DNA of 64,000 nt from Mycoplasmatales bacterium (lineage in GTDB: Bacteria > Bacillota_I > Bacilli_A > CBDATW01): NCBI GenBank assembly GCA_965226165.1, contig OZ245334.1:629947-693946 (forward strand). Reading direction: 5' to 3'. The notes beneath the pieces are model-generated. The model made no database searches, had not been told where the DNA came from, and saw nothing but the letters and a program-made list of their open reading frames with translations. The position numbers and the translations under genes are program-made. Each line of letters begins with the position of its first letter. The stretch's first letter is position 1. This document shows, piece by piece, positions 27,419-43,421 of this stretch.

Positions 27419-28684
27419 ATGATAGATATTAAACTTTTAAAAAGTAATTTTAAAGAAATTAAAGCAAAATTAGAATCTAGAAATGATGATTTTACATTTT
27501 TAGATGATCTTTTAAAGCATGAAAACAGACGAGTAGAAATTATTCAAATCGTGGAAGATAAAAAAGCTTTGCGCAATCAGCAATCAAAACAAATTGCAGT
27601 TCTTAAAAAAAAGAACCAACCAGTTGATCAAGTTTTAAAAAAACTAGAAACCTTAAAAAAAGAAATTATAAAACTTGATCAACAACTTTTAGAGTGCCGT
27701 AATAAGATTAAAGAATATCTTTTGCAAATTCCTAATGTTCCACGTGGAACATGTCCTATTGGTAAAGATGAAAATGATAATGTTGAATTAAGAAAATGAG
27801 GTCAAATGCCTTCTTTTAGCAAATATAAAGCTTTGGATCATCAAACTTTAGGAGAAAAGTTAAACATTTTAGATTTTGTTAGTGCTGCTAAAGTTTCAGG
27901 CTCTAGGTTTGCTATTTATAAAAATGATGGTGCCAAGTTGCACCGAGCCTTAACCCAATTTTTATTAGACTTTCAAACCCAAAAAAATCAGTTTATAGAA
28001 ATTATTACACCTTATATTGTTAATCACAATTCAATGCAAAATACTGGACAATTACCAAAGTTTGCTAATGATCTTTTTAAAACTGATAATAATATGTTTT
28101 TAATTCCTACAGCCGAAGTTTCTTTAACAAATATTTTAAAAGATGAAATTATTAATGTTGATAAAACTATTAAATATTGTTCATTTAGTCCATGTTTTCG
28201 CTTAGAGGCTGGTTCGGCCGGAAAAGATGTAAGGGGTTTAATTAGACAACACCAGTTTCACAAAGTAGAAATGGTGATGTTTTCTCATCCTGATAAATCA
28301 TTACAAGACTTAGAAATTATGACTAATTATGCCGAAGATATTTTAAAAGCTTTAAAGTTACCATATCGTGTAATTGAGCTTTGTACTGGTGATTTAGGTT
28401 TTTCTTCATCTAAAACTTATGATATTGAAGTGTGGTTACCATCATATAATGCTTATAAAGAAATATCTTCATGTTCTAATATGTCTGATTTTCAAGCTAG
28501 AAGGGCTAATATTAGATATCGTAATAAAGAAAAAACTTTAAGTTTTGCTCACACCCTTAATGGTTCGGGTTTACCCATTGGTCGAACAATTGCTGCAATT
28601 TTAGAAAACAACCAACAAGAAGATGGATCAATTAAGGTTCCAGAAGTCTTAATATCTTATTTTGGTAAAAAATATATTAAATAA
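27419..28684 (+). CDS. serS: seryl-tRNA synthetase
   Basis: Track ORFs 27419.. and 27806.. are in frame and joined by one TGA (1266 nt). It has the coiled-coil N-terminus and a class II core. Confidence 0.9.
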
Positions 28685-28692
28685 CATCTAGC

Positions 28693-28712
28693 AATGTTCC
28701 ACGTGGAACATT
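28693..28712 (+). terminator. perfect 20-bp palindrome after the serS stop (possible hairpin terminator)
   Basis: The sequence is aatgttccac/gtggaacatt followed by tt. A 19-nt copy also occurs inside serS at 27734..27752. Confidence 0.35.
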
Positions 28713-28748
28713 TTAAAGATATAAAATATTGTATGATATAATACTAAT

Positions 28749-28820
28749 GTCACAATAGTAACCTAAGAACCTGGTCAGATTAGAAATAAAGCAGCCATAA
28801 TTAGAAGTGCTATGTGTGAC
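28749..28820 (+). ncRNA. ffs: signal recognition particle RNA (small 4.5S/scRNA type)
   Basis: The domain IV motif CCTGGTCAG...AGCAGCCATAA is present. The ends pair (GTCACAATAG / CTATGTGTGAC) and a T-run follows. Its position upstream of tadA/dnaX resembles Bacillus scr. Confidence 0.7.
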
Positions 28821-28886
28821 TTTTTTATATATAATAATTTAATTAACAATAAATTCTATATATAAAAAATATAAAATGGTTTTAAG

Positions 28887-29291
28887 ATGAAAGAAAATAT
28901 TATTTTTAAAGAGCTTATTAAATTAGCTAAAAAAAGTTTAACTAAGGATGAAGTGCCAATTGGCGCTTTAATTGTTGATAATAATCAACAAATAGTGGCA
29001 AGAGGTTTTAATAATAAGGAAACTAACAATAATGTTTTAGATCATGCTGAAATTATTGCTATTAAAAAATTAGCCAAAAAAATTAAATCTTGAAAATTAA
29101 ATGATTATATTTTGTACACAACTTTAGAACCCTGTGATTTATGCAAAGAAGTTATCAAGGTTTCTCGAATTAAAAAAGTGATTTATTTTGCAAAACAAAA
29201 CAAAAAAATTAACTATAAAACTAAGTGGGAATTTAACAAGAAGAACGAGGCCTCATCATTAATAACAAAATACTTTAAAACAAAAAAATAA
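28887..29291 (+). CDS. tadA: tRNA-specific adenosine deaminase
   Basis: HAEIIAIKK is followed, after one TGA, by TLEPCDLC (zinc-binding deaminase motifs). Confidence 0.85.
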
Positions 29292-29370
29292 CACTTATAG
29301 TGTGAATTGATTGAAATATATATATATATGATATAGTTTTAAAAAGATTTTAGAAAGTAGCACTAGAAAT

Positions 29371-29580
29371 ATGGATTTTAAAAAAAATAGTTCAATAGCC
29401 AAATATTCGTTTTGATTTTGTATAGCAATTCAAGTTATTCTTGGAATTATTTATTATGTAGACAAAAAATTAACGCAAAATTTGCTTCATGATGTCATAA
29501 ATTGAGGATCAGTAATAGGAATTTCTTTTTCTGCATATTTGTGATGGTCTTATGCTAAAAAAGCAAAACAAAAACAATAA
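29371..29580 (+). CDS. hypothetical small membrane protein (69 aa)
   Basis: Translation: MDFKKNSSIAKYSFWFCIAIQVILGIIYYV...VINWGSVIGISFSAYLWWSY... Four TGA=W codons. Confidence 0.3.
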
Positions 29581-29623
29581 AAAAATTTATAATATATAAT
29601 TATAGTGTAGTTGGAGGTCTAAA

Positions 29624-29665
29624 ATGGCAAAAAATTGTTGCTTAGATGGAGCTTGCAATTGCTAA
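29624..29665 (+). CDS. micro-ORF encoding a 13-aa Cys-rich peptide MAKNCCLDGACNC
   Basis: GGAGG lies 7 nt upstream of the ATG and a TATAAT lies further upstream. A hairpin plus T8 terminator follows. Confidence 0.3.
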   Translation: MAKNCCLDGACNC

Positions 29666-29693
29666 TTGCAATTAAATTATATAATTAATAATT

Positions 29694-29730
29694 ACCACAT
29701 ATTCTTAATCGGATTTGTGGTATTTTTTTT
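29694..29730 (+). terminator. rho-independent terminator-like hairpin
   Basis: ACCACA...TGTGGT stem followed by a T8 run. Confidence 0.5.
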
Positions 29731-29847
29731 AAATAATGAGTTTCATTCAATTTATTTCACTTTTTTATCTAATAAATTATTTTAGTGTTTAAAAAAATAA
29801 GGATTTGTTTATAATTATATATAATAAGGAAATTATTAAAGATAATT

Positions 29848-31818
29848 ATGGAACAAATACATAAATCACTTTATCGAGTTTATCGTCCCAAGGTTTTTGA
29901 TGAAGTTTTAGGCCAAAAATTAATAGCAACAGCATTAAAAAATGCTATTAATGAAAACAAAATAGCTCATGCTTATTTATTTGCTGGAAGTTCAGGTGTA
30001 GGAAAAACATCGCTTGCTAAAATATTTGCTAAGGCAGTTAATTGCATTAAGGAAAATAAACCTTGTTTAGAATGTGATATTTGTCAATTAATTCATAATA
30101 ACAAAACTACTGATGTTATTGAAATGGATGCTGCTTCAAATAATGGAATTGATGAAATTAAAAATTTGATAGAAAACGTTAAATACCCACCACTTGAGTG
30201 TGAATATAAAGTTTATATTATTGATGAAGTTCATATGCTTTCCAGTTCAGCTTTTAATGCTTTATTAAAAACTCTTGAAGAACCACCTGCTAAAACCATT
30301 TTTATTTTAGCAACAACCGAAGAACACAAGGTGCCAGAAACAATTTTAACAAGATGTCAAAAATTTTACTTTTTAAAAGTAGCTGATCAAGAAATTGTTA
30401 AACTTTTAGAAGACATTGCTAAACAAGAAAACAAAGAATATGATAAGCAAGCTTTAGAATTAATTGCTGAAATGGCCAACGGGGGAGTGAGGTTAGCAAT
30501 TTCTATTTTTGAAAAATGTATTAGTCTTCCTGAAAAGTTAACTATTAATGTTGTGAATAAAACTTATGGTTTATTATCTAAAGAAGAAGTAAAAGAACTT
30601 TGTGAAGCAATTTATAAGAAAGATCAACAAGCAATTTTTGTTATGTTTGATAAAATTAACAATCTTTCTTCTAATTATTTGAGAATCACAGAAGAAATTT
30701 TATCATTTTTAAAAGAAGTTTTAATTTCAAGCATTAATCAGGACTATAATTTTAAATTTATTAATAAAAATGATGATATTTTACTAGATGAAAAATTTAT
30801 TTATGATTTTATTAATTTAATTAAAAATAGTATGCAAGAAATGAGGTTTGCTAATAGCCCTAAATTGTTATTTGAAATCTTAATTTTAGAAGCTTTAAAA
30901 TTTAATGAAGAAATGAAACCAAGCAAGGTAAAAAAAATTGGTAAAAACCAAGAAGAAAAAACATCTATAGTTGAAAAAAATTTAGAAGTTAATAAAACAA
31001 AAGAAAAACCCCAAAAAATTGAAAAAATCCCAACCCAAACGGGTTCTTTATTTGCTAGTGATAACAATGTTGATGAAGTAAGCGAAGTCAAAAAAGATGA
31101 AAAACAAGCAAAGGAAATAAAGGAAAGCAAAGATGAGAAGATACAAGAAAAGATCACCACTAAAGACATACCTGAAAATGAGCAACCCAAGGAAGAACAA
31201 GACAAGCATATTGAAGATGATATTCTCTCTGAAATCAAATCAGAAAAAGAAGCCTTAATTGAAGATATCAATAAACAACCAATTGAAGAAGAACCCCAAG
31301 AACAAAGTAAAGAAAAAAAAGAAGAAATAGCAAGTGAACATATTAAGCTTGAAAATGAAATTATTAATGTTTTATTAAAAGCTGAACGAAAATATAAAGA
31401 GTTTTTTAAAACAAAATGAGAAAATTTAGATAAGTATTTAGATATTCCAGAAAATGCTAGATGAATTAATATGATTCATAATTCTAAAATAGCTGCTGCC
31501 ACAGATAATGTAATTATTTTATTATTTGAATATGAACCAAGTGCCAATATTTTAAATGATGAAAATAAAAATCAAAAATTTTTAAATTTAATGTATCAAA
31601 TTTTTGAAAAAGATGTTTTGTTTTTAGGAATATGAGTTGAATTATGAGAAAAAATTAAAAGTGATTTTGTTTATAAGAAAAATAATAATAAATTACCAAA
31701 ATATGTGGAAATTTTTGTTCCTAAAACCAAGCTTAAGGTTAATAAAAAAGATATGGATCAAGATTTAAAAAACATTAATGATCTTTTTGGTGAAGATGTT
31801 GTTAAAGAGGTTGAATAA
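29848..31818 (+). CDS. dnaX: DNA polymerase III subunit gamma/tau
   Basis: Contains HAYLFAGSSGVGKTS and a Zn module (CLECDIC). A K/E-rich linker follows. The C-terminal domain continues through several TGA codons to 31818. Confidence 0.9.
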
Positions 31819-31820
31819 TC

Positions 31821-32393
31821 ATGGAAAAACAAATTTTAGAATTAATTAATGGTTTTAGTAAACTTCCTGGTGTAGGACAAAAATTAGCTGAAAAAATAGT
31901 TTGTTATAGTAATAAAGAAATGATTAACAATTTAAAAAAAATGTTGGAAGTTTTTGACAAAATGCAAAATTGTCAAAAATGCAATGGTTTTACACAGAAT
32001 AAAGTTTGTGATGTTTGTTTAGACAAAAATAGAAATAACTACCAAATATGTGTGGTTTCTTCAATTGTTGATTTTTTTCAACTTGAAGAAAAAAACTTTT
32101 TTAAAGGAAAATATTATATTTTAAATCAAGAAATTAATCCCAAAAAAGGAATTGCTCCCCAGGATTTAAATTTAGATAAACTTAAAAAACAAGTTAATGA
32201 AAAAACTGAGCTAATGATTGCCACAAATTTTACTATTGAAGGGGAATTAACTGCTAAATACATTGTTAGTTATTTTAAAGATAAGGTCAAAAAGATTTTT
32301 CGCCCTTCCACTGGAATTCCGGTTGGTTCAAAAATTTCTTATGTTGATAATGAAACATTAAAAGCATCATTTAATAATAAAAAAGAGGTTTAG
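31821..32393 (+). CDS. recR: recombination protein RecR
   Basis: 190-aa ORF with LPGVGQKLAEK (HhH), a C4 zinc finger (CQKCNG...CDVC) and a Toprim part. Confidence 0.9.
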   Translation: MEKQILELINGFSKLPGVGQKLAEKIVCYSNKEMINNLKKMLEVFDKMQNCQKCNGFTQNKVCDVCLDKNRNNYQICVVSSIVDFFQLEEKNFFKGKYYILNQEINPKKGIAPQDLNLDKLKKQVNEKTELMIATNFTIEGELTAKYIVSYFKDKVKKIFRPSTGIPVGSKISYVDNETLKASFNNKKEV

Positions 32394-32395
32394 TT

Positions 32396-33034
32396 ATGTT
32401 TAAAAAGAAAAAAGGAATATTTATCACAATTGAAGGCACTGATGGTGCTGGCAAAACTACTTGCTTAAGCAAGGTTTATGATTTTTTAAAACAAAAAAAT
32501 ATTCAAGTAGAACAAACTAGGGAGCCAGGAGGAACTAAATTTGCTGAAGGAGTGAGAGATTTATTGTTAAATGAAGAAATTGATGCTGTCACAGAAGCGC
32601 TGGCTTTTGCAGCAGCAAGAAGAGATCATATTAAAAAATTTATTGAGCCTAACCTAAAAGCAAATAAAATAGTTTTATGTGATCGTTTTGTTGATTCTTC
32701 TTTTATTTACCAAACTTTTTCTAAAAAATTAAAAATTAATGATGTTATTACCATTAACCGCTTTGCTATTGAAAAACTATTCCCCGATTTAACCATTATT
32801 TTATTAGTAGAACCTAAAATTGCTTTACAAAGAAATGCTGATGATTTTAACAAAGAACTTAATCGCTTAGATAAAAGAGATGAATCTTTTTATCAAGCGA
32901 TTAATAATAGTTTTAAACAACTTGGTAAGGTGTTTAAAAAAAGAATAGTTTATATTGATGCTGATAATTTAACCATCAAAGAAATTACTAACCAAATCCT
33001 TGAAAAGATTAATCAACGTTTTAAGTTGTGGTAA
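32396..33034 (+). CDS. tmk: thymidylate kinase
   Basis: Contains FITIEGTDGAGKTT and DRFVDSS motifs. Confidence 0.9.
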   Translation: MFKKKKGIFITIEGTDGAGKTTCLSKVYDFLKQKNIQVEQTREPGGTKFAEGVRDLLLNEEIDAVTEALAFAAARRDHIKKFIEPNLKANKIVLCDRFVDSSFIYQTFSKKLKINDVITINRFAIEKLFPDLTIILLVEPKIALQRNADDFNKELNRLDKRDESFYQAINNSFKQLGKVFKKRIVYIDADNLTIKEITNQILEKINQRFKLW

Positions 33035-33063
33035 AATAAAAGAAAGAAAAAGAGGTGTTTAAG

Positions 33064-33489
33064 ATGTTTTTTAATTATTTTTATAACCATCATCATTGGG
33101 GTTGATCTTTTTTACCTTGACCATTTTTTGTTTTTATTATTTTATTTAAAATTGTTTTAATAGTAACAGTTATATCAATTATTATTATAGTTGTTAAAAA
33201 CTATAATATTAAAAATGCTAAAAATATGCAGTTATTAGAAGAGGAAATAAAAGAGGTTAAAGTGAAAACTAAAACTAAAAAAGAATATGAGATTCAAGTT
33301 CAAATTATAAGGCTTGTTAACAAAAGAAATAAAAAGATTATTTGGGGAGCAGTTAATGTTATTATCTTTTGATGACTATTATTTATTCCTTTAGTTATAG
33401 GAATTATGCAATTAAGTGAAATTCCTGATATTAATTCAGAAATTGAAATCTTAAAATTAAAAGCTGCTACATATAATAAGGAAAAATAA
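33064..33489 (+). CDS. hypothetical membrane protein (141 aa)
   Basis: Starts MFFNYFYNHHHWGWSFLPWPFFVFIILFKIVLIV.... Hand-translated through TGA codons. Confidence 0.4.
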
Positions 33490-33499
33490 ATAAATCATA

Positions 33500-34192
33500 A
33501 TGACAAAATTAATTCATGCTTATATTATTGAAAACCAAACAATAGCTAAATTAAAAGTTTTAACAAAAAACTTTGTTAAAACACTAATTTGTGATGATTT
33601 AAGTGATAAATGCTTAAAATGTTTAGCAATTGAAAATGAGCAAAATAGTAATGTTTTATATTTTGATGGTTTTAGTGAAAAAATTAAAAACCAAGATATT
33701 AAACTTGCTAAGGAATTTACTAGTTATAAAAATGATAGTCAAGAAATTAAAATAGTGGTTTTACATGGGTTTGAATATGCCACCAAAAAAGCAGCAAATA
33801 GCTTTTTAAAATATTTAGAAGACCCTTATGAACAAACCATTTTTATTATCACTACTGCTAATAAAAATTTGGTGCTACCCACTATTGTTTCTCGTTGTGT
33901 TGATGTTACTAATAAAAAAGAAGATATTAAAGTAGAAACTAAATACCAAGAAGAAATTAATCTTATTAAAGCAAAACAATATTGAGACATTAATTGAGCC
34001 AGTTTTAATAAAAATAATATTTTAGATTTTTTAATAACTTTATCTAATAATATTGATGTTAAAACTAATCCTTTATTTGTTAAAGGGATATTACAAATTA
34101 TTGATCAAGTTAAATCAAATGTTACTTATGATTTAGTATTAGCACAAATTTTAAAATTATGTGAAGAGATTAGTGATGGAAAAAGTAATTAA
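33500..34192 (+). CDS. holB: DNA polymerase III delta' subunit
   Basis: Starts MTKLIHAYIIEN.. and contains ANSFLKYLEDP and TIVSRC motifs. It extends through two TGA codons. Its position after tmk matches M. genitalium-type order. Confidence 0.75.
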
Positions 34193-34874
34193 TCATAACA
34201 ACTTCCCTAATTTATATCTTCTAGCGACTCCAATTGGAAATTTAAAAGATGTTTCAATTCGGTTAATTGAAACATTAGAATTAATTACTATTTTGCTTTG
34301 TGAAGATACAAGAAAAACAGGCCTATTATTACAAAAGTTAAATATTAAAAATAAACCTAAACTAATTAGATATGATGTTACTAATGAAAATAAAATAACT
34401 AGTAAAATAATTAACCTCTTTAAAGAACATCAAAACATAGGTTTATGTAGTAATGCAGGCACACCATTAATTTGTGATCCTGGCTTTCCTTTGGTAAGAG
34501 ACATTCAAAAATTAGATATTAATGTTGTTTCTATTCCTGGTCCAAATGCTTATTTAAATGCTTTAGTTGTTAGTGGTTTTCCAACTAATCATGTGTTTTT
34601 AGGTTTTATTAAAAATAAAGAATCACAGATTATTAAACAATTAAATGAGGCAAAGCAATATAAATTATCAATTGTTTTTTATGTCTCATGTTATAAGTTA
34701 TTAAAAACTTTAAAAATAGCTAATGATATTTTTAAAGATAAAGAAATTTTTATTGCTAAAGAATTAACCAAATTATATGAAACCCATTATCAAGGTGAAA
34801 TTAATGATGTTATAAAAAAATTACCACAAACTCTAAAAGGAGAATATGTGGTAATCATTAATAATGCAGGTTAG
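34176..34874 (+). CDS. rsmI: 16S rRNA 2'-O-ribose C1402 methyltransferase
   Basis: Contains LYLLATPIGNLKDVSIR..LCEDTR (tetrapyrrole-methylase fold). An alternative GTG start lies at 34161. Confidence 0.85.
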   Translation: MEKVINHNNFPNLYLLATPIGNLKDVSIRLIETLELITILLCEDTRKTGLLLQKLNIKNKPKLIRYDVTNENKITSKIINLFKEHQNIGLCSNAGTPLICDPGFPLVRDIQKLDINVVSIPGPNAYLNALVVSGFPTNHVFLGFIKNKESQIIKQLNEAKQYKLSIVFYVSCYKLLKTLKIANDIFKDKEIFIAKELTKLYETHYQGEINDVIKKLPQTLKGEYVVIINNAG

Positions 34875-34930
34875 TTATTGTTGTCTTTAAAAAGTGTATA
34901 ATAAAATTATGAAAGTCATAGGTAAAAATT

Positions 34931-35131
34931 ATGAAGAGAATTGCAAAAACAAAAACATATGAATTGAAAAGAATAAGTGATATAGACATTATTATTGAAA
35001 AACAAAAACCAAATAACTTTAAAGTCAAAAGTTTAGGAATAAATAAAAGGCAAAGTGCCTTTCGAGAAGTGGGGAAAGACAGATTTATATTGGATTATAT
35101 TCACATACTTGTGTGTATTTGATATGAATAA
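34931..35131 (+). CDS. hypothetical protein (66 aa)
   Basis: This is the track ORF plus WYE after one TGA. No motif recognised. It sits at the left edge of the defence island. Confidence 0.25.
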
Positions 35132-35149
35132 AAAATAGCAATAAAGACT

Positions 35150-35644
35150 TTAAAATAAATCAATAAAGGGATTTTCTATTTTCCTGTGTTTTAACAAATA
35201 TCGAAAGACCCGATTAGGGTTTATAGGTTTATTATAATACGTCTCAGGTAATTTAATTTTTTTTAATTTTTCATTTTTAAATAAATATGAATATGATTGA
35301 TTTTTGAAATTATAAATCTTTTCAATACAATCCAAATAACCATTTTTATTAAATGAAACATACCCATATTCAAATATTAGATCACACGATCCGCACAAAA
35401 TTAAAAAGTTATCCCAATCTCTCATTTCATATTTATTGCAAACACTATATTGCTTTATATGTGAAGCTCTTAAAAATTTTTTGTTAGAAAGACCACATAT
35501 CGCGCACTTCTTATGCAATTGTTTTAAATCATTAGCAGTTTTTGTGTGACCCTTTCTATAACTTGATAAATATTCTACTTTTTCTCCCAACTCTATTCTT
35601 CTTTTAGCTTCATTGCTTTCTTTATGAAACTTATATTTAATCAT
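35150..35644 (-). CDS. HNH (HNH_2-type) nuclease, third gene of the GHKL/Z1 operon
   Basis: Contains KCAICGLSNKKFLRASHIKQYS....WDNFLILCGSCDLIFEYGYVSF. Its start lies 21 nt after the Z1 stop. Confidence 0.7.
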   Translation of the reverse strand: MIKYKFHKESNEAKRRIELGEKVEYLSSYRKGHTKTANDLKQLHKKCAICGLSNKKFLRASHIKQYSVCNKYEMRDWDNFLILCGSCDLIFEYGYVSFNKNGYLDCIEKIYNFKNQSYSYLFKNEKLKKIKLPETYYNKPINPNRVFRYLLKHRKIENPFIDLF

Positions 35645-35665
35645 CTTTTCTTTGTCTCTAAAAGA

Positions 35666-37249
35666 TCATATTGTTTTATTTTGTATGATTTTTTGTTCCA
35701 CAAATTTTGCCTCATAATTTTTATTTTTATTTTTCAAACTATAATTATTTATTACATTTTCTATATTTGAAAATTCTTCTGTGTTTTTTGAAGAAACTTT
35801 ATCTATTAAATCATCTTTAATAATCCCAAACTTTTTATTTTTCAATAATTCTTCTGTTACTTTAATAATTTCATTTTCTTGCTTTTCTTTTTTTTTCAAA
35901 ATTTTGTCATTAAACAAATTTTTATATTTAGATTTATTCATATTGTAAAAATTAATAATTTCATCAATGTTGTTTCTTTCACAAACATTCTTTAATTCTT
36001 TATTTATTATTTTTATTTCTTTGTATTTCTTAATTAATTCTAATTCTAAATAAACATTTGGTTCTTCTTTTCTATAACCTAAAAATCTAGCATTTTGCAT
36101 TAATATATCATAATTAGTGTTTTTATTTTTTGAAATAATAATATCAGTTAATCCCTCAAATGTGTTTCCTCTAGAAAAGCAAAAACCTCCAATTAATATT
36201 TTCTTTTCGTTCTTTATAGTTTTAAAACTATTATGCTTGTCGTGCTTGTTTGAATTTATAATTAAAATATTGCTTTTTCTTAAATGCCATCATTTTGTTA
36301 ATTCTAATAACTGGTTTTTATTAATATTTAATGTTTCTTTATTTTTTTTTCTATTTGGAGTGTTATCATCTATGTATTTAACAAAAAAAAGCACTATCAA
36401 TTTTTTTATTTGCTTATGAAATTTTTGCTCAGTTTTTACATTTATCAAAAATTCATTGTCTTTTTTATTATCAAGTAGCCACTTAATCAAAACACTTATT
36501 ATTTTATTGCACTCTTTAATAGGCAATTGAATACCCAAATCTTCTATTTCTTTTTTAGAAAAAAATTCTTTTATTTGTATTTGGTTATAGTTGTCAAAAT
36601 TATGAAAACCCAAATATTTTTGGCCATATTCCAAAACACAAACCCCTTGTATATTTATATATTTTTGTGCATATTTAGAAAAAATATTTCAAAAAGGAGT
36701 TGCCGAAACACCAATATATTTTGAACCTTCATAATCAAACAAAGTGTTTAAGCCATAATCTATTAAATTATCTTTGCTTCAATAATCACATTCATCATCA
36801 AACACAACAATTTTTTTGTTTAATTCTTTAGCTTTTTTAACAATTCTTTTAAGGTCGTTTGTTTGTTTTTTTAAAAATATAATTTGTTTGTATTTCCTTC
36901 TATTAATAAAAATATCAATTTCCTCATTAATATAGCAATAGATATTATAATCATTATTATTGTAAGCTTTTTTAAATCTTGAAAATGTTTGATCATTCAG
37001 GGAATTTCTATCGCCTGTTAAAACAATTATTCATGAATAATTTTGTTCAAAAAATCAACCAGATAAATAAATCATATTGTTTGTTTTACCAGACTGGACA
37101 TCACCATATAAAACAATTCTGTTATTTTTATTAATTTCTTTTATAATTTTATTCAAATTTTTATCAAGAATTTTTTCAAAGTTTTCTTTTTGAATAGGAT
37201 CTTCAATTTTCTTTGATAGATTAAGCTTTAAGCTATTTAATATTTTCAT
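35666..37249 (-). CDS. Z1-domain P-loop/helicase-like protein (527 aa)
   Basis: Three track ORFs share one frame (1584 nt). Motifs: GDVQSGKTNN (Walker A), VFDDECDYW, GVSATPF, GGFCFSRGNTFEGLT and ARFLGYR (Z1 signature). Confidence 0.8.
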
Positions 37250-37262
37250 TTATTCAATTTTT

Positions 37263-39170
37263 TCATTCTTCTTCATTCTTGACTCTTTTACCTTCAAACA
37301 AAAGAACAATTATAAATGCAAGTACTGAGGCATTATAAAGTTTTTCTTTTCTATTTTCTGTTTGATCTTCATTGATTTCATCAAATGTAATATTTTTATG
37401 TGCATTAAATCTATATAATTTAACCTGTCTATCTCCAACTATATCTTTAAAATTTTTATTCAATTCATCTCTTTGTTCCTGACTAAAAGTTCCAGGGTTT
37501 TCTTCATAAAAAGTTTGTACAAACTTGTTTGGTTCATCAAAATTTTGTATTGTTAGGGTAGGCAAGGTTTCATCAATAAATTTTACACTTAATAAAATTG
37601 ACTTTTCTTCATCTTCATCAGCCATAGAAAAAAGTCATTCCTTAGGGGTTATATTAATTCTTGGAACCTCATTCATTTCACTTAAAGATCATTTTATTTT
37701 GCTATCATTAAAAAAAACTTTTGACCCATCATCATTTGAAAAATTGTCATTTCATTTTGTTAAATAAGCATTTGCAAAAAGAACAACATAATAAAGTTTC
37801 ATTTTTTTAAAAACTTCTTTATAAAAACAATCTTTTATTCTTTTAATTAATTCTTTGTCAAAATTTATTTTATTTTTTTCTGTCCTTATTTTATCATTTA
37901 TTGGTAAAATAATTTCTAAATCAAAATGTTCTAATTTTACTACCCCAGAACCACCCCTTTTTCCAACAAGGTTTTTAATTCACGATTTTTGAGGTATAGA
38001 TTTCTCCATAACATGAGGGCCCCTGTCATGTTGATATAATCTTATTCCTAAATTTTTCTTTCCCAAACTATTACTATTTTTTATTTCAATAGTTTTTCTT
38101 TTTGATGAAGAGTGTGGTATTCCAAATATTATTTTGAATGAATCTTCTTCATTCAAAAAACCATCTAAATCTGATATTCAATTAAAAGCTCATTTTAATT
38201 CTTCTCCTTTTTCAGAAGGAAGACTTAATAATTTTTTTCACATTAAGTTTAAATCATATTTTCTTCCATCAATTTGCCTTATATTATTGAATGTTGTATT
38301 ATCTTTTCACTCCAAAAATGATTCAAAAGTTTCAACAAATGATGTTTTTATCCAACCCACATTGTTCAAATATTCAAATTTTCTTTTAAGAATAGTTTCT
38401 CAATCTTCTTCATCACCAATTTTACAAAAAATATCAAGATTTTGTATAACAAAAAAATCTCTAGGAATCTTTTTTTCAATTATTCATTCATAATCAATAG
38501 TTTCAGTATTTTCAAATATATTTATTTTTATTTTTATTGCTTTGTTTGTTAAAAAATTTTTATAATACCTAATAGCCACAAAGTAACAAAATAATTGAAA
38601 ATTATCAATTTTAAAAATTTTATCTTTATCTTTTCTTTCATCATAAAAATCAAAAATTCTAATAAGCGTGCCTGTTGTTTCAAAATCACTTGTTATTCCT
38701 TTTATTTTTGAATGTTCAATTTCTCTAAACTTAATAATTCCTGAATAATCTTTCCATGTAGTGTCTGAATCATCTTTTGAATAATGAGCATTAACACACA
38801 ATGCCTTTTTAAAAATTTTGTTATTTTTATTAAAAGAAGAACTAAAAATTTGGCCTTGATATCCAAAAAATTGAATAGCATCTTTCATCCCCACATTATA
38901 TTCAGATTTAGTGTCTTTTAAGTTTTCTGAATATCTTGTTATTGCGGAATCTCATATTTCTTCCTTAATTCCTTCACCATTATCTTTTACTCATAAATGA
39001 TCTTCGTTTCAAAAAATTTCAATAATTAAATCTTTATTTTGTTGTTGATATTCTAAAGAATTGTCAATTAATTCACAAATAAAATATTTTCAAGGAATTT
39101 TACTTTTTTCTCCCTCGCTTCTCCATCTTGCTTTTTGATCAATTATAGCTTTATGCAGATCTCCTATCAT
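37263..39170 (-). CDS. GHKL-family (HATPase_c_3-like) ATPase (635 aa)
   Basis: The N-terminus MIGDLHKAIIDQKARW...FICELIDNSLEY...LWVKDNGEGI carries the Bergerat N and G1 boxes. I translated 37626..38483 codon by codon and found no TAA or TAG. Confidence 0.8.
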
Positions 39171-39491
39171 ACAAACCCCTTAAATATATTAATTATATCA
39201 ATACTATCACACCAGAATCTCCAACACAATATTTTTGAAAACATTTTCAATAATTTAAATAAAGTGTTAAAATAAAAATGTAGTTATGAGATAGAATTTA
39301 GTTATTAAATGTATATTAATAGTCATAGACTACATCAATTTAAAGTTTTAAATCTTTTTTTCAAATATTTTTTGTTATTAAGTTTTTATTTTTGTTTTTT
39401 CTTTTGAGAAGCTTTGAAGTTTTCATTTTTAGACTCCTTTTTTAAAAGTAAATGTTTTTGTTAATTTTAAATTAAAACTTAAATTGAACTC

Positions 39492-39525
39492 AAAAATAAC
39501 TTATTTTAATTAATAAGTTATTTTT
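39492..39525. repeat. perfect 14-bp-stem inverted repeat
   Basis: aaaaataacttatt / ttaatt / aataagttattttt, in the divergent spacer upstream of the GHKL operon. Confidence 0.6.
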
Positions 39526-39579
39526 TAATATATATAACTAAATTAAAGGGATTTTATATTAATGTATAATTAAGTTATT

Positions 39580-39795
39580 ATGAAGCGTCGACCTAGCGAT
39601 TATATTATTATTATATTTGTCATCATGTTTTTTGCAGTTGCTGCTTTTTACATCTTAGTTCCTTCTGGCCAAGATGGCATTTCTTTAATTGTGCAAAATA
39701 CAGTTAGAAGATATTTTTTTAATAATTTATGAGCTTGAATATTTGCTTTCTTTATTCTAGGAGGAATTATTTTAGTATCAATTCTTTTTTATTAA
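39580..39795 (+). CDS. hypothetical small membrane protein (71 aa)
   Basis: Translation: MKRRPSDYIIIIFVIMFFAVAAFYILVP...LWAWIFAFFILGGIILVSILFY. A TATAAT lies upstream. Confidence 0.3.
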
Positions 39796-39825
39796 AAAAG
39801 AAAAAGATAATGTTATAATTGCTTT

Positions 39826-39972
39826 ATGATTGGTCTTGGTGAAGTTTGAATTAGCTTTCTTGTATTTTGTTTTTTGGCCATTGTTTCCTGACCCTTTACT
39901 GAAAATACAATCATTACTATTTTAATTTCTTTTTTGTTAGCATCTTGATTCTTATTTTCTTCTGGAAAATAA
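39826..39972 (+). CDS. hypothetical small membrane protein (48 aa)
   Basis: Translation: MIGLGEVWISFLVFCFLAIVSWPFTENTIITILISFLLASWFLFSSGK. Weak call. Confidence 0.2.
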
Positions 39973-39979
39973 AAACAAT

Positions 39980-42138
39980 TTATTTTAAACCAACAATTTT
40001 TCTATATTGCATAATCTTGTGAAGAGGCATTTCTATCATAGGTGCTCATCTTAGATTGTTTATATGATTTACAAAATTAAGCCTATTATAAATATTTTTT
40101 CACTCTTCCTCTATTTCCAATTTTTCTTTTTCTATAATATTCATTAAGCCTTTAAATTTACCATTATTTCATTCATTTATTTTGTTTTCACTTAAACTCA
40201 ATATTACTTTTTTTTCAATTTGAAATCGTATTTGCATTGTCAACATATATTTATTTAAAACATAGTCAAAAAAACTTTCAATTTCATTTTTTGATTTATG
40301 TTTATAATTCAGAATGAAATCACTCACCGTTTTTTCCTTAATTGATTTATTTTTAAATAAAAAGTTCAAAGGACTATTGTTTTCTTGGAGCAAGTTAATT
40401 AGTTGCATAGGAGCGATTTCTTTAATTTCTTTTACAAGAACAAAGAACGACTTACTATTCGACCTTCAATGTCTATAGTTTTGGTCAATAAAATCTTTTA
40501 ATTTTTCTAAATCTTTTTTTTCTTCTTTGCTTTTTGCATTTAAAAAATAATTACTTGTAATTTCCCTCAATATTGTTGCAAACATCAATACAGTTTCTTT
40601 ACTACATTTGTCAAGGTTTTTGTCTTTCTTAAAATTAGTTGTCAACCATTTAGACATTTTTTTTAAAACATTAATATTAATTTCTTTTACAATAATGTCT
40701 GCTTGACTATATGAGTCCATAAAAAAGAATTTAGTATTATCATTATTTTTTGCAATTGCAAAATTACTTAACAAGTGATAATTATGAGTTAGTATTAAAA
40801 TGTTTTTGTTTTTATCAAAATTATTTATTATTTCAATAAAGATATTAATATTATCCAAATCCAAAGAGGAAACAGGATCATCAATTACTATGAAATCTTT
40901 TTCTTTTGCTTCAATTAAAGCAATTATTAAATACAAAATTTTTCTTTGCCCATTTGACCCGTACTCATTAAGTTCATCTTTTGAAATTGTTTTTGAATTA
41001 TTCTTATTTTCAAAAACAATATTAGTCTCTTCATAATAATTTTTAATTTCTTTAATCTTAATTGTTCACATTAAAGCATTTATTTTTAAACTTTCCTCAT
41101 TAATTTCTTTAGCAATTTCATTATAATTTTTAACAAAATTTTTATTTTCATTTATAATTTTTTTATGTTCAATTTGAAGCTGATCTTGATATTTTTTAAA
41201 TTCTCCTATTATAAGGCTATCCCACATTTCAATTAAAAAATTTTCTGCAATCTTTAATTCTGCTATTCCCCTCGTGGATAACTTTTCTATTTCCTTGTGA
41301 TTGCCTTTTAAATATCGCAACGCTAAATAAGCATCCCTATTAAGTTTACTAATTCCGTTTTCATTAAATTTTTCTTTAAGGTTCTCTTCAGCATTCTTTA
41401 TGTCGATTCAATGATTTTCATATTTATATTGAAAGTTTAGAGAACCAGACTCATTTATGTTTTTGATTAGTGGAAAATCTCTGTCAAGATTTTTGTTAAA
41501 ATATTTTCCAACCTTATCATCTAACTTGTTAAATTTTATCCTTTTATCAACCTTAGTAGCTTTTTTAATTGCATCTATTTTGTTTTTATATAATTTAATC
41601 TTATCAAAAAGATCTTTATCAATGTGCTTGGGGCTTTTTAGTAAAATTTTATTTTCAATATCCTTTATTTCCTCTATGTTTTTATTAGGATTATTAACTA
41701 TTTTTTTAATTATCTTAGATATTTCGCTTTGATTGTCAATTTCTTTATTATCAAAAAAAATTGAATACTTAATTTTTAACTCTTTAAAAACTTTTTCAAT
41801 AATTTTAAAATATCCTACATGTAAATCACTATTTATAGAAAATATTATTTTTTTGTTAACTTGATTTTTGATTAAATCACTATTTTCGCTATTTTTAATT
41901 TCATCAAGAAAATTTTCATCTATTATAAATATTTGATTACTTTTTATATCAATTTGAATAAAATCTTTATTAACCGTTCCTTCTAATGAAGTTTTAAAAA
42001 TTTTTTCTTTCAAACCTTTGAAACCTTTTGTTATGCTTGTTTTTCCAACCCCATTTGGTGCAAATATTATATTTTTTCACTTAAGTCAAAATTTATTTCA
42101 TCTTTTAGACCATAAAGATTTTTTATTTTCAATTTCAT
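39980..42138 (-). pseudogene. AAA_13/ABC-type (PrrC/RloC-like architecture) ATPase, N-terminal 23 codons out of frame at an A6 tract
   Basis: MKLKIKNLYGLKDEINFDLSEKI-stop is in one frame. NIIFAPNGVGKTS (Walker A) is in the next. Track ORFs 41408, 41066, 40466 and 40169 share that second frame through TGA. Signature and Walker B read GSNGQRKILYLIIAL...FIVIDDPVSSLD. The 3' end near 39980 was derived by hand. Confidence 0.6.
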
Positions 42139-42270
42139 TATAACTTCTTTTTTTTATTTCCAATCTTATGAATGCCCTTCTTAAATTATAAAAAAAATGT
42201 TTAAAAACTTCATTTAAAAATTGAAAATTTCTTAAAAATTTGTTTTAATTAATTAAGGAACGCTAGACTC

Positions 42271-42849
42271 ATGGAACGAAAATTAAAAGATATGATTTCT
42301 CAAGAAATGGTTTTATGAAGAGATCAATCAAGGAGACACAACTTTTCACCAAAAGGGTGAATAATATCAGAAATAGTAAAAAATTATTATAAAGATTTTT
42401 TCAAAAATAAAGAAGAGTTTAATATTAAAGAATTTTGTAAAAAGTTAGAATTAGAAGTAGAAAAAATAGATTTAAATTTTAACAGTCTAGACAAAAATAT
42501 TTGAGGAATGCTGGATCGAAAAAACAAAAAAATTTATATTTCTGAACATTTGAAAAATGAACAAACCATAAGATTTACAATAGCACATGAATTAGCTCAT
42601 TTTTTAATAGACCAAAATGAAACCAATGATATATATTATAGAGATAGAATTAATATTGGTAAAGAAGTAATATATAATGATTTTGCTGCAAGTTTTTTAG
42701 TTGATATCAAACAAATTCAAGATTATATAGACAATAAAAAATTAACTTTTCGAGAATTATCAAAAAATTATAAAGTTCATTATGAAACAATCGGCATTTT
42801 AATTGACCAAGAGTTAAGAAAAAGAAAAAAAATAAATCAAATTAAGTAA
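42271..42849 (+). CDS. ImmA/IrrE-family (COG2856-like) zinc metallopeptidase, no HTH domain (192 aa)
   Basis: Contains ..KKIYISEHLKNEQTIRFTIAHELAHFLIDQ (HEXXH). The ATG at 42271 is in frame with track ORF 42508 through three TGA codons. Confidence 0.75.
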
Positions 42850-42851
42850 TT

Positions 42852-43421
42852 ATGGCATTATCTAAGAAAGAATTAAACAAAATTAAAGAATTAGAAGATG
42901 AAATAAAAAGACTTGATTGAAGATTAAGAAGACAAGAGAAAATTTTATATGATAAAAATACTGAAATTAATGAATATCTTTCTAAATATAACTCATTTCA
43001 ACAAAAAATTGAATCAGAATTTACTATTCTTAAAAACTCTAAAGAAATTGAATCGAAATTTCTATATGAAAACTCAAGATCAAATTTGCACACAATTACT
43101 ATTTTTTCATTTATTTTAATTCTGTCATTAACTATTTTGAATTCTATAATAATAAACAGGCTTGATAAATTTCAAATTAAAATTAAAGATGGAAAAGAAA
43201 TTATTGAAAAAACATATGATGGAAATGCAATAAATACAATAATTTCATTTTCATATGCATATGCTCTTCTTGGTTTTTTCACAATCTTCATTGTTTCAAA
43301 GCTATTTGATAGCTTGTGAAAATTTAAAGACAAAAAAATTTTAACAACAATAACCATAATATTTGTGAATTTATCAATAATTTGAATAGCAATTTTGTTA
43401 TATTTACTTTTTATTAAATAA
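42852..43421 (+). CDS. coiled-coil plus three-TM membrane protein (189 aa)
   Basis: It starts 3 nt after the peptidase stop. MALSKKELNKIKELEDEIKRLDWRLRRQEKILYD... is followed by three hydrophobic helices (ITIFSFILILSLTILNSIII, ISFSYAYALLGFFTIFIV, IIFVNLSIIWIAILLYLLFI). Confidence 0.55.

What the first reader, a model, noticed from the sequence alone, without database searches (positions are those of the whole stretch)
35150..39170. Orphan GHKL-ATPase / Z1 / HNH operon without the Dcm-Vsr partners
The three co-directional genes are separated by only 13 and 21 nt. The first is a GHKL ATPase (ELIDNSLEY, DNGEGI). The second is a Z1 P-loop protein (GDVQSGKTNN, DDECD, FSRGNTFEGL, ARFLGYR). The third is an HNH_2 nuclease (CAICG..ASHIKQ). 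As I recall from Pfam notes and defence-island surveys, HATPase_c_3 plus Z1 normally travels with a C5-cytosine methyltransferase and Vsr, with an AIPR or PD-(D/E)xK third gene. Here I see no methyltransferase or vsr in the window apart from the unrelated N6-adenine enzyme at 14-16 kb, and the effector is an HNH. That suggests a self-standing, possibly modification-dependent, nuclease complex whose mechanism is not established.
Basis: partly seen in the sequence, partly recalled or inferred. Interest (0 to 1): 0.7.

Follow-up and report, generated by a model that had tools for sequence, protein, structure and literature searches.

The report
Two-gene GHKL plus Z1-HNH cassette
A small mycoplasma-like bacterium carries a swappable two-gene DNA-cutting defence cassette: an ATPase "clamp" protein and a DNA motor fused directly to a nuclease, a rare, stripped-down variant of a known but mechanistically unsolved family of restriction-like systems.

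Summary
The three domains are real (Pfam HATPase_c_3, Z1 and HNH_2, all above gathering cut-offs) and lie on the minus strand at 35150-39170. The gene model is wrong, though. The genome uses code 4 (TGA = Trp). There are two genes overlapping by 17 nt: a 645-aa GHKL ATPase and a 699-aa DEAD-Z1 motor fused to the HNH.

No Dcm or Vsr occurs in the window. In a 97%-identical relative, exactly this cassette (34865-39228, with its own promoter and terminator) is replaced by a DpnII + Dam restriction-modification cassette, so it is an autonomous accessory unit in a defence hotspot.

Only one other motor-HNH fusion turned up among the top hits from 1.84 billion representative proteins: a syntenic orthologue with 45% identity. 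The nearest relatives are Mollicute three-gene modules (GHKL + short DEAD-Z1 + a separate DUF4420 nuclease), some next to DndC-like or Dam-like genes.

I read it as a new variant of the known paraMORC/Z1 restriction-like kind (Mza, CglI): the nuclease has been swapped and fused, and no methyltransferase is present. How it tells self from non-self is unresolved. Interest is moderate.

The parts
34865..39228 (-). The whole swappable cassette: promoter, GHKL gene, DEAD-Z1-HNH gene and terminator
   Evidence: blastn against close relative L019. Identity is 97.4% up to window 34864 and resumes at 99.7% from 39229. Between these points L019 carries DpnII + a D12-class methyltransferase instead.
39171..39228 (-). 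Cassette-specific 5' region, with an extended -10 box TGATATAAT (39200-39192) and an RBS-like AAGGGG (39181-39176) ahead of the ATG at 39170
   Evidence: Read directly from the sequence. The consensus scan also lists a promoter-like site at 39210-39183. Function is inferred, not shown.
37233..39170 (-). geneA: a 645-aa divergent MORC/paraMORC-like GHKL ATPase with 16 in-frame TGA (Trp) codons
   Evidence: Code 4 ORF. Syntenic orthologue in L001 at 37% identity over 640 aa. Family-invariant residues are E33, D36, N37, D63, G67, G94, K96, G167, T168, R383 and K434. The nearest PDB sequences are the SMCHD1, MORC2 and HtpG GHKL modules.
38760..39080 (-). Bergerat-fold ATP-binding domain of geneA (aa 31-137)
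   Evidence: PF13589 HATPase_c_3, 27.4 bits against a cut-off of 25. hhalign to classical GHKL partners is limited to aa 31-115.
37233..37249 (-). 17-nt overlap between the geneA stop (TAG at 37235-37233) and the geneB start (ATG at 37249)
   Evidence: L001 has the same 17-nt overlap (genes 8134-10017 and 10001-12073). Translational coupling is inferred.
35150..37249 (-). geneB: a 699-aa DEAD-Z1 SF2 motor fused to a C-terminal HNH nuclease, with 6 in-frame TGA codons
   Evidence: Code 4 ORF. Full-length orthologue P0002 at 45% identity. It was the only full-length match among the listed top 150 hits of a search of 1.84e9 representatives.
36692..37156 (-). N-terminal RecA-like (DEAD) domain, aa 32-186: Walker A GDVQSGKT (49-56), Walker B DDECD (151-155), motif III SATP (182-185)
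   Evidence: PF18766 and PF04851. These columns are invariant across 23 Z1 proteins. The AF2 pLDDT is about 85-90.
35978..36469 (-). Z1 (second RecA-like) domain, aa 261-424: GGxxFSRGxTxEGL (354-367) and motif VI QNAR (385-388)
   Evidence: PF10593, 53.7 bits. Invariant columns G354, G355, R360, G361, T363, L367, D381, Q385, R388, G391 and Y392. The QxxR and Q-containing Walker A motifs are the DEAD-Z1 hallmarks reported for H.CglI (PMC5861437).
35666..35668 (-).
   Evidence: The position is a conserved Trp in P0002.
35348..35506 (-). HNH (beta-beta-alpha-Me) nuclease core, aa 582-634, with catalytic H597, N614, D623 and (just beyond the Pfam match) E627, and a Cys4 set C582, C585, C619, C622
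   Evidence: PF13391, 24 bits against a cut-off of 21. phmmer to the VcaM4I HNH (6yex) gives E = 6.6e-10. The residues map onto VcaM4I H224, N241, D250 and D254, which were shown to be essential (PMC7897488). All are invariant in P0002.
35045..35063 (-). Terminator-like hairpin followed by a T-rich tail (ATTTATT, three consecutive T), 87 nt downstream of the geneB stop
   Evidence: It is the only terminator-like site found in 34700-42400.
39229..39536 (.). 308-bp intergenic block that forms the right-hand border of the cassette. It is shared at 99.7% with L019, which lacks the cassette.
   Evidence: The part next to geneA is also about 67% conserved upstream of both geneA copies in L001. There is no significant RNA structure (z = -1.69).

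Best explanation
This is an autonomous, horizontally exchangeable two-gene defence cassette encoding an ATP-dependent, restriction-like nuclease complex.

- GeneB is a single-polypeptide translocase-nuclease. Its DEAD-Z1 motor is the same kind that drives dsDNA translocation in the H subunit of CglI. It is fused through a helical linker of about 130 aa to an HNH domain with an intact catalytic site.
- GeneA is a divergent MORC/paraMORC-like GHKL ATPase. It is translationally coupled to geneB.

Proposed mechanism:
1. The GHKL protein dimerises on ATP binding and acts as the DNA-engaging, licensing subunit. Its roughly 450-aa C-terminal region of unknown fold is the only candidate target-recognition module.
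2. It recruits or activates geneB.
3. GeneB translocates along the DNA and cuts it with the HNH domain.

Evolutionary origin: the cassette derives from Mollicute three-gene modules (GHKL + short DEAD-Z1 + separate DUF4420 PD-(D/E)xK nuclease). The separate nuclease gene was lost and an HNH was fused to the motor.

Shown: the domain architecture, intact motifs, operon structure, orthologue conservation, cassette boundaries, and replacement by an R-M system in a near-identical strain.

Inferred: complex formation, the division of labour between the two proteins, translocation-coupled cleavage, and the defence role. How self DNA is spared is not known. No dedicated modification gene travels with the cassette.
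For: - Domains and motifs.
- Code 4 and the two-gene model.
- The 17-nt overlap is conserved in L001.
- The architecture recurs in an independent assembly, at a syntenic site beside rsmI/holB/tmk/recR/dnaX.
- The cassette is replaced precisely by DpnII + Dam in a 97.4%-identical genome, and the slot also hosts a CRISPR/double-HEPN locus in L001.
- The nearest motors all sit in GHKL + DEAD-Z1 + DUF4420-like operons on code 4 contigs.
- L013's upstream partner shares geneA's C-terminal motif.
- Published biochemistry shows the DEAD-Z1 motor is an ATP-driven dsDNA translocase that couples to a nuclease subunit (PMC5861437).
- GHKL + SFII helicase + nuclease operons were predicted to be R-M systems (PMC2292703).
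- A methylase-less GHKL-nuclease, VcSduA, gives direct anti-phage defence that needs both the ATPase and the nuclease (PMC12137116).
Against: - There are no experimental data for any member of this lineage.
- GeneA scores only just above the Pfam cut-off, and its G2 box is degenerate (YNVGMK instead of FGxGxK).
- The fold of its C-terminal two thirds could not be modelled (pLDDT 34.5), so its clamp or sensor role is conjecture.
- The HNH part of the geneB model has low confidence.
- PADLOC has no model that matches geneA.
- Only two genomes carry the fusion, so conservation statistics are thin.
- A restriction enzyme with no cognate modification enzyme would be toxic to its host unless an unseen discrimination mechanism exists.
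Confidence: 0.7

Rival explanations
1. Modification-dependent (Type IV-like) restriction. The complex attacks DNA that carries a foreign modification, so it needs no methyltransferase. A specific version: it is the methyl-dependent counterpart of the DpnII/Dam cassette that occupies the same locus in the sister strain, analogous to the pneumococcal DpnI/DpnII alternative cassettes.
For: - The swapped unit contains no modification gene.
- The closest solved relative of the HNH is the nuclease domain of the 5mC/5hmC-dependent enzyme VcaM4I.
- The allelic cassette in L019 is a GATC methylase plus DpnII.
- S. pneumoniae carries either DpnI or DpnII as alternative systems (PMC3812788).
Against: - No EVE, SRA, SBD, wH or other known modification-reader domain was detected in either protein or in any of six geneA-family members.
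- HNH_2 domains also occur in enzymes that are not modification-dependent.
- The allelic relation rests on a single strain pair.
- GATC usage gives no signal.
Confidence: 0.3
2. A conventional restriction module whose protective modification enzyme is encoded elsewhere in the genome, outside the 64-kb window.
For: - Relatives sit next to modification genes: Dcm in the classical loci, a DndC-like protein plus a DUF262 protein in L015, and a Dam-like N-terminus in L013.
- Iyer et al. discuss unlinked partners as a possibility (PMC2292703).
Against: - In a 97%-identical background the cassette is exchanged as just two genes for a complete R-M pair. That is hard to reconcile with dependence on an unlinked methylase.
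- No candidate lies within the available flanks of either locus: about 35 kb and 25 kb either side in the window, and 10 kb either side in L001.
- The only DNA methyltransferase in the window belongs to its own M+S system at 13-16 kb.
Confidence: 0.25
3. Sequence-independent sensing of invader DNA features (free ends, replication or recombination intermediates, supercoiling), as in Shedu-type GHKL-nucleases, possibly with abortive outcomes.
For: - VcSduA (paraMORC3 GHKL + PD-(D/E)xK) defends without a methylase.
- Neither protein has a recognisable sequence-reading domain.
Against: There is no direct evidence. The DEAD-Z1 motors characterised so far work with site-specific recognition subunits.
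Confidence: 0.15
4. A housekeeping DNA-repair module (MutL-like ATPase + helicase + nuclease) substituting for the mismatch repair that Mollicutes lack.
For: GHKL + helicase + nuclease is also the logic of MutL/UvrD/MutH repair (discussion in PMC2292703).
Against: - The pair is absent from a 97%-identical strain, where an R-M system takes its place.
- It lies in a slot that also holds CRISPR-associated or ATPase cassettes.
- It diverges much faster than its flanks: 65-67% versus 78-82% DNA identity to L001.
Confidence: 0.04

Closest known systems
Mollicute three-gene GHKL + short DEAD-Z1 + DUF4420-like modules (uncharacterised; loci L008/L009, L013, L015, L016, L017/L018 found here)
   Same: - Closest motor sequences: 28-32% identity over about 400 aa, HMMER E values from 1e-41 to 1e-31.
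- Same gene order, GHKL then motor, with abutting or overlapping genes.
- All are on code 4, AT-rich contigs.
- They share the N/H variant of the H/H motif.
- L013's GHKL shares geneA's C-terminal motif.
   Different: - They have a separate PD-(D/E)xK (DUF4420-like) nuclease gene, and their motors are 430-500 aa with no HNH.
- Several sit beside DndC-like or PAPS-reductase-like genes, Dam-like genes, or stand-alone HNH_2 genes.
- The window has no third gene and no modification neighbour.
Mza (MzaABCDE), also described as paraMORC + Z1 helicase + RE-fold nuclease + AIPR operons linked to Dcm/Vsr (Iyer et al. 2008; PADLOC and NCBIfam models)
   Same: A GHKL ATPase next to a DEAD-Z1 SF2 protein, together with a nuclease, in defence islands.
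   Different: - Mza has five genes, including DUF4420 and AIPR. Its Z1 protein is 920-940 aa with N- and C-terminal extensions, and Dcm (plus or minus Vsr) is adjacent.
- GeneB scores 47.5 bits against the MzaC equivalog cut-off of 1500.
- GeneA matches no PADLOC model.
- In the window the nuclease is an HNH fused to the motor.
CglI/NgoAVII ATP-dependent Type II restriction enzymes (R2H2; the H subunit is the prototype DEAD-Z1 motor)
   Same: - Motor architecture and hallmark motifs: Q-containing Walker A, DExD Walker B, QxxR motif VI.
- H-like size class. The best PADLOC hit is the 'Type II helicase domain protein' model at 1e-20.
   Different: - CglI uses a separate PLD-B3 R subunit for recognition and cleavage, plus a cognate C5 methyltransferase, and has no GHKL partner.
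- GeneB carries its own HNH and lacks the H.CglI C-terminal domain (no hit to 6F1S).
HNH_2-type modification-dependent restriction endonucleases (VcaM4I, TagI, ScoMcrA-like)
   Same: The HNH core, with the same catalytic H/N/D/acid arrangement, and no methyltransferase.
   Different: Those are single polypeptides of about 300 aa with an EVE, SRA or SBD reader domain and no ATPase. GeneB has an SF2 motor instead and no detectable reader.
VcSduA / paraMORC3 (Shedu type I-D)
   Same: A GHKL ATPase controlling a nuclease. It is methylase-independent and gives direct defence.
   Different: It is a single protein with a DUF4263 PD-(D/E)xK nuclease and no SF2 motor.

Membership tests
Pfam HATPase_c_3 / GHKL superfamily (geneA) | Bergerat-fold motifs: N box ExxxN, G1 box DxGxG, G2 box GxxGxG, and the GT motif | tested here: met
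   PF13589 scores 27.4 bits against a cut-off of 25. E33, N37, D63, G65, G67, G167 and T168 are present. E33, N37, D63, G67, G167 and T168 are invariant in all six family members; G65 is not, with A, C or G at that column. The G2 box is reduced to NVGMK, although G94 and K96 are invariant.
MORC/paraMORC (GHKL + S5) proteins of R-M systems (Iyer et al. 2008) | An S5-fold transducer domain with a conserved Lys after the GHKL domain | tested here: inconclusive
   A family-invariant K434 and an R383 motif exist. However, the fold could not be modelled (pLDDT 34.5), and no profile reaches beyond aa 137.
MORC/paraMORC (GHKL + S5) proteins of R-M systems (Iyer et al. 2008) | An operon with an SFII helicase (Z1 type, DThhQxuRhFG motif) and a nuclease | tested here: met
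   The 17-nt overlap with geneB. GeneB has DILMQNARFLGY (aa 381-392) and an HNH.
MORC/paraMORC (GHKL + S5) proteins of R-M systems (Iyer et al. 2008) | A linked DNA methylase and/or Vsr (frequent, but not universal) | tested here: not met
   The Dcm and Vsr profiles are negative in the window, L001 and L008/L009, with a positive control.
DEAD-Z1 helicase-like motors (H.CglI prototype) | Walker A with Q (GxxQSGKT), Walker B DExD, motif III, and motif VI QxxR in the Z1 domain | tested here: met
   GDVQSGKT, DDECD, SATP and QNAR are present, and these columns are invariant across 23 Z1 proteins. The motif definitions come from PMC5861437. The AF2 model shows a dual-RecA fold that matches SF2 helicases.
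DEAD-Z1 helicase-like motors (H.CglI prototype) | The H/H motif that couples ATP hydrolysis to cleavage | tested here: inconclusive
   The consensus is LIHxxxxxxxH. GeneB and P0002 have LINVxTxxKxH, with N270 and H278. The Mollicute short motors also show N...H (sequences).
CglI/NgoAVII restriction system | An R subunit with PLD nuclease and B3 DNA-binding domains, and a cognate C5 methyltransferase | tested here: not met
   Both are present in L005, L006 and L011 and absent from the window cassette.
Mza anti-phage system | An MzaC equivalog (NCBIfam NF041933, cut-off 1500 bits) | tested here: not met
   47.5 bits, and only aa 327-421 align. The PADLOC MzaC hit is 1.8e-10 and partial.
Mza anti-phage system | A five-gene set including a DUF4420 nuclease and an AIPR protein | tested here: not met
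   There are only two genes between the cassette borders. DUF4420 and AIPR are seen in L003/L004.
HNH_2 nucleases / Type IV modification-dependent enzymes | A catalytic beta-beta-alpha-Me site (His general base, structural Asn, acidic or His metal ligands) | tested here: met
   H597, N614, D623 and E627 align with VcaM4I H224, N241, D250 and D254. PF13391 scores above its cut-off.
HNH_2 nucleases / Type IV modification-dependent enzymes | A fused modification-reader domain (EVE/PUA, SRA, SBD, wH) | tested here: not met
   No such domain was found by Pfam, NCBIfam, PADLOC or PDB sequence search in geneA, geneB or the geneA family. A reader with a novel fold cannot be excluded.
HNH_2 nucleases / Type IV modification-dependent enzymes | Cleavage that depends on modified bases | not testable with these tools
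   This needs biochemistry or in vivo restriction assays.

The most novel reading that the evidence does not exclude
The cassette is an ATP-driven, modification-dependent restriction machine of a new type. A MORC-like GHKL subunit, rather than a PUA/SRA reader, recognises methylated DNA (for example Gm6ATC) and licenses a Z1-HNH translocase-nuclease. The cassette and the DpnII/Dam cassette are complementary alleles at one locus in this Mollicute population, a parallel to the pneumococcal DpnI/DpnII system and a prokaryotic precedent for methylation-responsive MORC ATPases.
Probability: 0.12. Interest if true: 0.75.

Novelty: new variant of a known kind. Interest (0 to 1): 0.45.

Why it matters
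GHKL (paraMORC) + Z1-helicase systems were predicted in 2008, and defence-finding tools now detect them as Mza. As far as the literature I could search shows, nobody knows how the GHKL subunit, the motor and the nucleases cooperate, or what they recognise.

This cassette is the most reduced version I could find. It has two proteins, one nuclease active site covalently tied to the motor, no methyltransferase and no AIPR. The fusion works like a Rosetta stone: it indicates that the Z1 motor acts in cis with the nuclease, and it leaves the GHKL protein as the only candidate for target choice. That makes it an attractive minimal model for biochemistry and cryo-EM, once its 22 TGA codons have been recoded.

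The strain-level swap with a DpnII/Dam cassette also marks a defence hotspot next to rsmI in a very small genome (about 0.75 Mb). The swap offers a natural experiment on how competing restriction strategies alternate.

Tried and rejected
- **Table 11 ORF calling.** It fragments every gene, so I replaced it with code 4.
- **Word-indexed homology search with geneA alone and with a three-sequence alignment.** Both returned only the query and missed even the syntenic orthologue, probably because AT-rich low-complexity words saturated the candidate list. I used local BLAST and hhalign instead.
- **AlphaFold of geneA.** The single-sequence model was unusable (pLDDT 34.5).
- **Foldseek of geneB.** It returned only generic SF2 helicases, with no specific relative.
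- **GTDB genome scan.** Cluster look-up gave no names either.
- **Metagenome, IMG/VR, plasmid and phage scans.** None found a second motor+HNH fusion.
- **GATC and palindrome statistics.** GATC is not avoided in the window, L019 or L001, so they say nothing on methyl-dependence.
- **PAPS-reductase/DndC-like profile against the window and L001.** No orthologue was found. The weak hit at 53641-54588 is probably a TilS-like PP-loop protein; I did not test this.
- **Repeat search for att-like direct repeats at the cassette borders.** Only low-complexity matches turned up.
- **RNA folding of the 308-bp border block.** Not significant.
- **Considered and rejected:** a separate HNH gene starting at Met536 (the reading frame is continuous and conserved across the TGA); a pseudogene or decaying remnant (both ORFs are intact in two diverged genomes); a sequencing-artefact fusion (an independent assembly has the same architecture).

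Full report
**1. What is in the sequence**

The window has about 25% G+C. ORFs called with table 11 are short fragments. Under code 4 the region 35150-39170 resolves into two long minus-strand ORFs:
- geneA, 39170..37233, 645 aa, with 16 in-frame TGA codons.
- geneB, 37249..35150, 699 aa, with 6 in-frame TGA codons.

That TGA encodes Trp is shown directly. In alignments with the orthologues from locus L001, 18 Trp columns align. Seven of them show a TGA/TGG exchange between the two genomes. Window-wide, the 49 code 4 ORFs contain 205 in-frame TGA and 53 TGG codons.

- Stopping at TGA codon 636 of geneA leaves 13 nt before the geneB ATG. That codon is TGG in L001.
- Stopping at TGA codon 528 of geneB leaves 21 nt before Met536. 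Trp528 is conserved in the orthologue, and the frame continues into the HNH.

[quoted passage not shown] The same 17-nt overlap occurs in L001.

**2. Domains**

Pfam confirms all three assignments above the gathering thresholds.
- GeneA: HATPase_c_3 at aa 31-137.
- GeneB: ResIII/SWI2_SNF2 at aa 32-186, Z1 at aa 261-424, and HNH_2 at aa 582-634.

GeneB carries the hallmarks of the DEAD-Z1 motor as defined biochemically for H.CglI (PMC5861437). These are the Q-containing Walker A (GDVQSGKT), Walker B (DDECD), motif III (SATP) and the short motif VI (QNAR). All of them fall in columns that are invariant across 23 Z1 proteins.

An AlphaFold model built on that alignment gives a confident dual-RecA motor for residues 1 to about 500. 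Its structural neighbours are generic SF2 helicases and translocases, including HsdR.

The HNH region matches the nuclease domain of the 5mC/5hmC-dependent enzyme VcaM4I (6yex, E = 6.6e-10). The residues shown to be essential in VcaM4I (H224, N241, D250, D254; PMC7897488) correspond to H597, N614, D623 and E627. All four are invariant in the orthologue, as is a Cys4 set (C582, C585, C619, C622). I therefore predict the nuclease to be active.

GeneA is a very divergent GHKL.
- Profile comparison with the GHKL partners of classical Z1 operons aligns only aa 31-115.
- A six-member family alignment keeps the N box, G1 box and GT motif, plus an invariant Arg383 and Lys434.
- Its nearest solved relatives by sequence are the SMCHD1, MORC2 and HtpG ATPase modules.
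- No domain is recognisable in the C-terminal roughly 450 residues of any member.
- The single-sequence structure prediction failed.

**3. Methyltransferase and Vsr**

They find nothing in the window, in L001 or in L008/L009. In the control locus L004 they score 354 and 127 bits. The weak window hit is the rRNA dimethylase RsmA. The 13-16 kb genes are an N6-adenine methylase plus a Type I-like S subunit, forming their own system.

**4. Relatives and contexts**

Only one protein shares the full architecture. P0002 has 45% identity and lies on a 788-kb contig.

An exhaustive HMMER scan of 1.84 billion representatives gave 7468 hits with E of 0.001 or less. Among the 150 best that are listed, apart from P0002, every hit matched either only the motor or only the HNH. 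A local HNH profile run over all 184 retrieved proteins confirmed this. DNA-level scans of GTDB genomes, JGI metagenomes, IMG/VR, plasmids and phages found no further fusion.

P0002 sits in a syntenic position next to rsmI/holB/tmk/recR/dnaX. Upstream is a geneA orthologue (37% identity) and a truncated tandem duplicate of it.

The distant code 11 relatives reproduce the two textbook contexts.
- GHKL + a 920-940-aa Z1 protein + DUF4420 + AIPR + Dcm. Vsr was shown for L004 by the control.
- Dcm + a PLD-B3 (NgoFVII/CglI-type) nuclease + a roughly 620-aa Z1 H subunit. One Bsp6I/Vsr/Dcm variant also occurs.

The closest motors (E from 1e-41 to 1e-31) are short proteins of 430-500 aa on AT-rich code 4 contigs. 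Each lies in a GHKL + DEAD-Z1 + DUF4420-like operon. In L013 the upstream partner ends with geneA's C-terminal motif.

Some of these triads lie beside candidate modification or restriction genes.
- A DndC-like protein (246 bits against a cut-off of 290) plus a DUF262 protein in L015.
- A Dam-like N-terminus in L013.
- Stand-alone HNH_2 genes of about 315 aa in L008 and L017/L018.

From this I conclude that the window's system belongs to a Mollicute lineage of reduced paraMORC/Z1 modules. In it, the separate PD-(D/E)xK gene was replaced by an HNH fused to the motor.

**5. It is a mobile, self-contained cassette**

A second genome (715-kb contig, L019) has housekeeping proteins more than 90% identical to the window's. 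At the DNA level the comparison runs as follows.
- The two are 97.4% identical from window 18552 to 34864, which is the end of rsmI.
- Homology then stops. L019 has an 80-aa ORF, a DpnII endonuclease, a D12-class (Dam-type) methyltransferase and two small ORFs where the window has geneB and geneA.
- Identity resumes at 99.7% for a 308-bp intergenic block (39229-39536).
- A second indel follows: the 727-aa ATPase at 39537-42347 is absent from L019.
- The next shared gene, an M78 peptidase, is only 75.6% identical.

The cassette-specific 58 bp upstream of geneA contain an extended -10 box (TGATATAAT) and an RBS-like AAGGGG. The only terminator-like hairpin in the region lies 87 nt past the geneB stop.

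In L001 the same neighbourhood additionally holds a 14-repeat CRISPR array and an 818-aa protein with two RNxxxH motifs.

The pair is therefore an accessory unit in a defence hotspot. It is exchanged as a unit against a complete R-M system. It also diverges faster than its flanks, at 65-67% versus 78-82% DNA identity to L001.

**6. Mechanism**

Established knowledge covers several pieces.
- The DEAD-Z1 motor of CglI hydrolyses ATP to translocate on dsDNA and thereby activates a partner nuclease.
- GHKL-S5 ATPases are ATP-operated dimerising clamps. Iyer et al. proposed that paraMORCs in R-M operons link recognition and cleavage sites.
- A paraMORC3-type GHKL-nuclease defends without a methylase and needs both of its activities.

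On this basis I propose that geneA is the DNA-engaging, licensing subunit. It would also be the specificity subunit, because geneB has no candidate reader: its residues 425-560 are a predicted helical linker. GeneB would then translocate and cut through its HNH. Complex formation, the order of events and the target are all inferred.

How self DNA is spared is open. My estimates for the options are:
- Modification-dependent attack: 0.30.
- An unlinked modification partner: 0.25.
- Recognition of DNA structure or ends: 0.15.

A repair role is unlikely given the presence/absence polymorphism.

**7. Comparison with known families, and novelty**

It works like a member of the paraMORC + Z1 restriction-like class. 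It is not an Mza system: it scores 47.5 bits against the MzaC cut-off of 1500, has no DUF4420 or AIPR gene, and geneA matches no PADLOC model. It is not a CglI-type enzyme either, because it has no PLD-B3 subunit and no Dcm. It has the HNH of the VcaM4I-like Type IV enzymes but no reader domain.

I rate it a new variant of a known kind. The variant features are the motor-HNH fusion, the two-gene format and the lack of a methyltransferase. It is rare (two genomes) and confined to uncultured code 4 Mollicutes.

Its value is as a minimal, tractable model for a family whose mechanism is unsolved, and as one allele of an interesting cassette polymorphism. Interest: 0.45.

Noticed in passing
L001 270-1170 and 1285-3741 (-): In the related Mollicute genome, a CRISPR array of 14 copies of a 36-nt repeat (GTTTCTGTCCGGTGCTAATTTGCACGGGATCAAAAC, 30-nt spacers) lies next to an 818-aa protein with two HEPN-like RNxxxH motifs (RNYYAH, RNKVFH). 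The protein has no NCBIfam hit. From memory this looks like a compact Cas13b-like locus, which would be unusual in a code 4 Mollicute. It is about 2.3 kb from the truncated geneA copy (6073) and about 4.4 kb from the full-length GHKL/Z1-HNH pair (8134).
   Followed up: partly
window 39537-42347 (gene 39980-42163, minus strand): A 727-aa ABC/AAA_21-type ATPase (weak AAA_13, HEC-01A and AbiLi-like hits) with a C-terminal region of about 250 aa of unknown function. It is a separate single-gene insertion, absent from the 97%-identical relative L019, and is probably an independent defence gene.
   Followed up: partly
window 39229-39536: A 308-bp intergenic block that is 99.7% identical to L019. That is more conserved than the flanking coding DNA (97.4%). 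It lies between two variable cassettes and is partly conserved upstream of geneA in L001. It contains a perfect 14-bp hairpin followed by a T run (about 39494-39525). It may be a recombination landing pad, a terminator or a regulatory region. The RNA fold z-score is only -1.69.
   Followed up: partly
window 13265-16049 (minus strand): A 595-aa protein with an N6_Mtase domain at aa 267-537 (NPPY motif) and an unassigned N-terminal region of about 260 aa that contains a D...ExK-like motif (PDYLI...IECK, by eye). It is followed by a 340-aa two-TRD Type I-like S subunit. From memory this resembles a BcgI-like Type IIB nuclease-methylase + S pair rather than an orphan adenine methylase. No HsdR gene is evident nearby.
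   Followed up: partly
window about 16000-18551, compared with L019 1-1133: Homology with the 97%-identical relative also breaks on the other side, upstream of yidC/rnpA/rpmH next to dnaA. There L019 has a GmrSD_N + HNH (Type IV-like) gene, while the window has different content. This is a second variable defence slot beside the replication origin region (dnaA at 20248-21657).
   Followed up: no
L001 6073-7479: A truncated (468-aa) tandem duplicate of the geneA orthologue, including its upstream region, lies directly upstream of the full-length copy.
   Followed up: partly
L015 10403-14462; L008 7452-8939; L017 4728-6149: A PAPS-reductase-family gene recurs next to the Mollicute GHKL/DEAD-Z1/DUF4420 triads. 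The L015 copy is DndC-like (246 bits against a cut-off of 290) and is followed by a DUF262/GmrSD_N protein. This suggests that some triads may serve as the restriction arm of a phosphorothioation-type modification system.
   Followed up: partly
L008 2054-3735: The GHKL gene of this triad is split into ORFs of 389 and 160 aa. Joined, they align over 578 aa with the intact L017 homologue. This is either a frameshift or pseudogene, or an assembly error.
   Followed up: partly
window 42271-43421: The M78/ImmA-like peptidase (best PADLOC hit CapP, 2e-14) and the following small membrane protein are conserved next to the hotspot in the window, L001 and L019. They are much more divergent than the background (75.6% versus 97.4% DNA identity to L019).
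   Followed up: no
window, whole: The palindromes CATG (observed/expected 0.57), TGCA (0.72) and AGCT (0.75) are under-represented, whereas GATC is not (0.92). CATG is also low in L019 and L001.
   Followed up: no
window 56579-63289 (minus strand): A very large 2236-aa ORF under code 4. I did not examine it.
   Followed up: no
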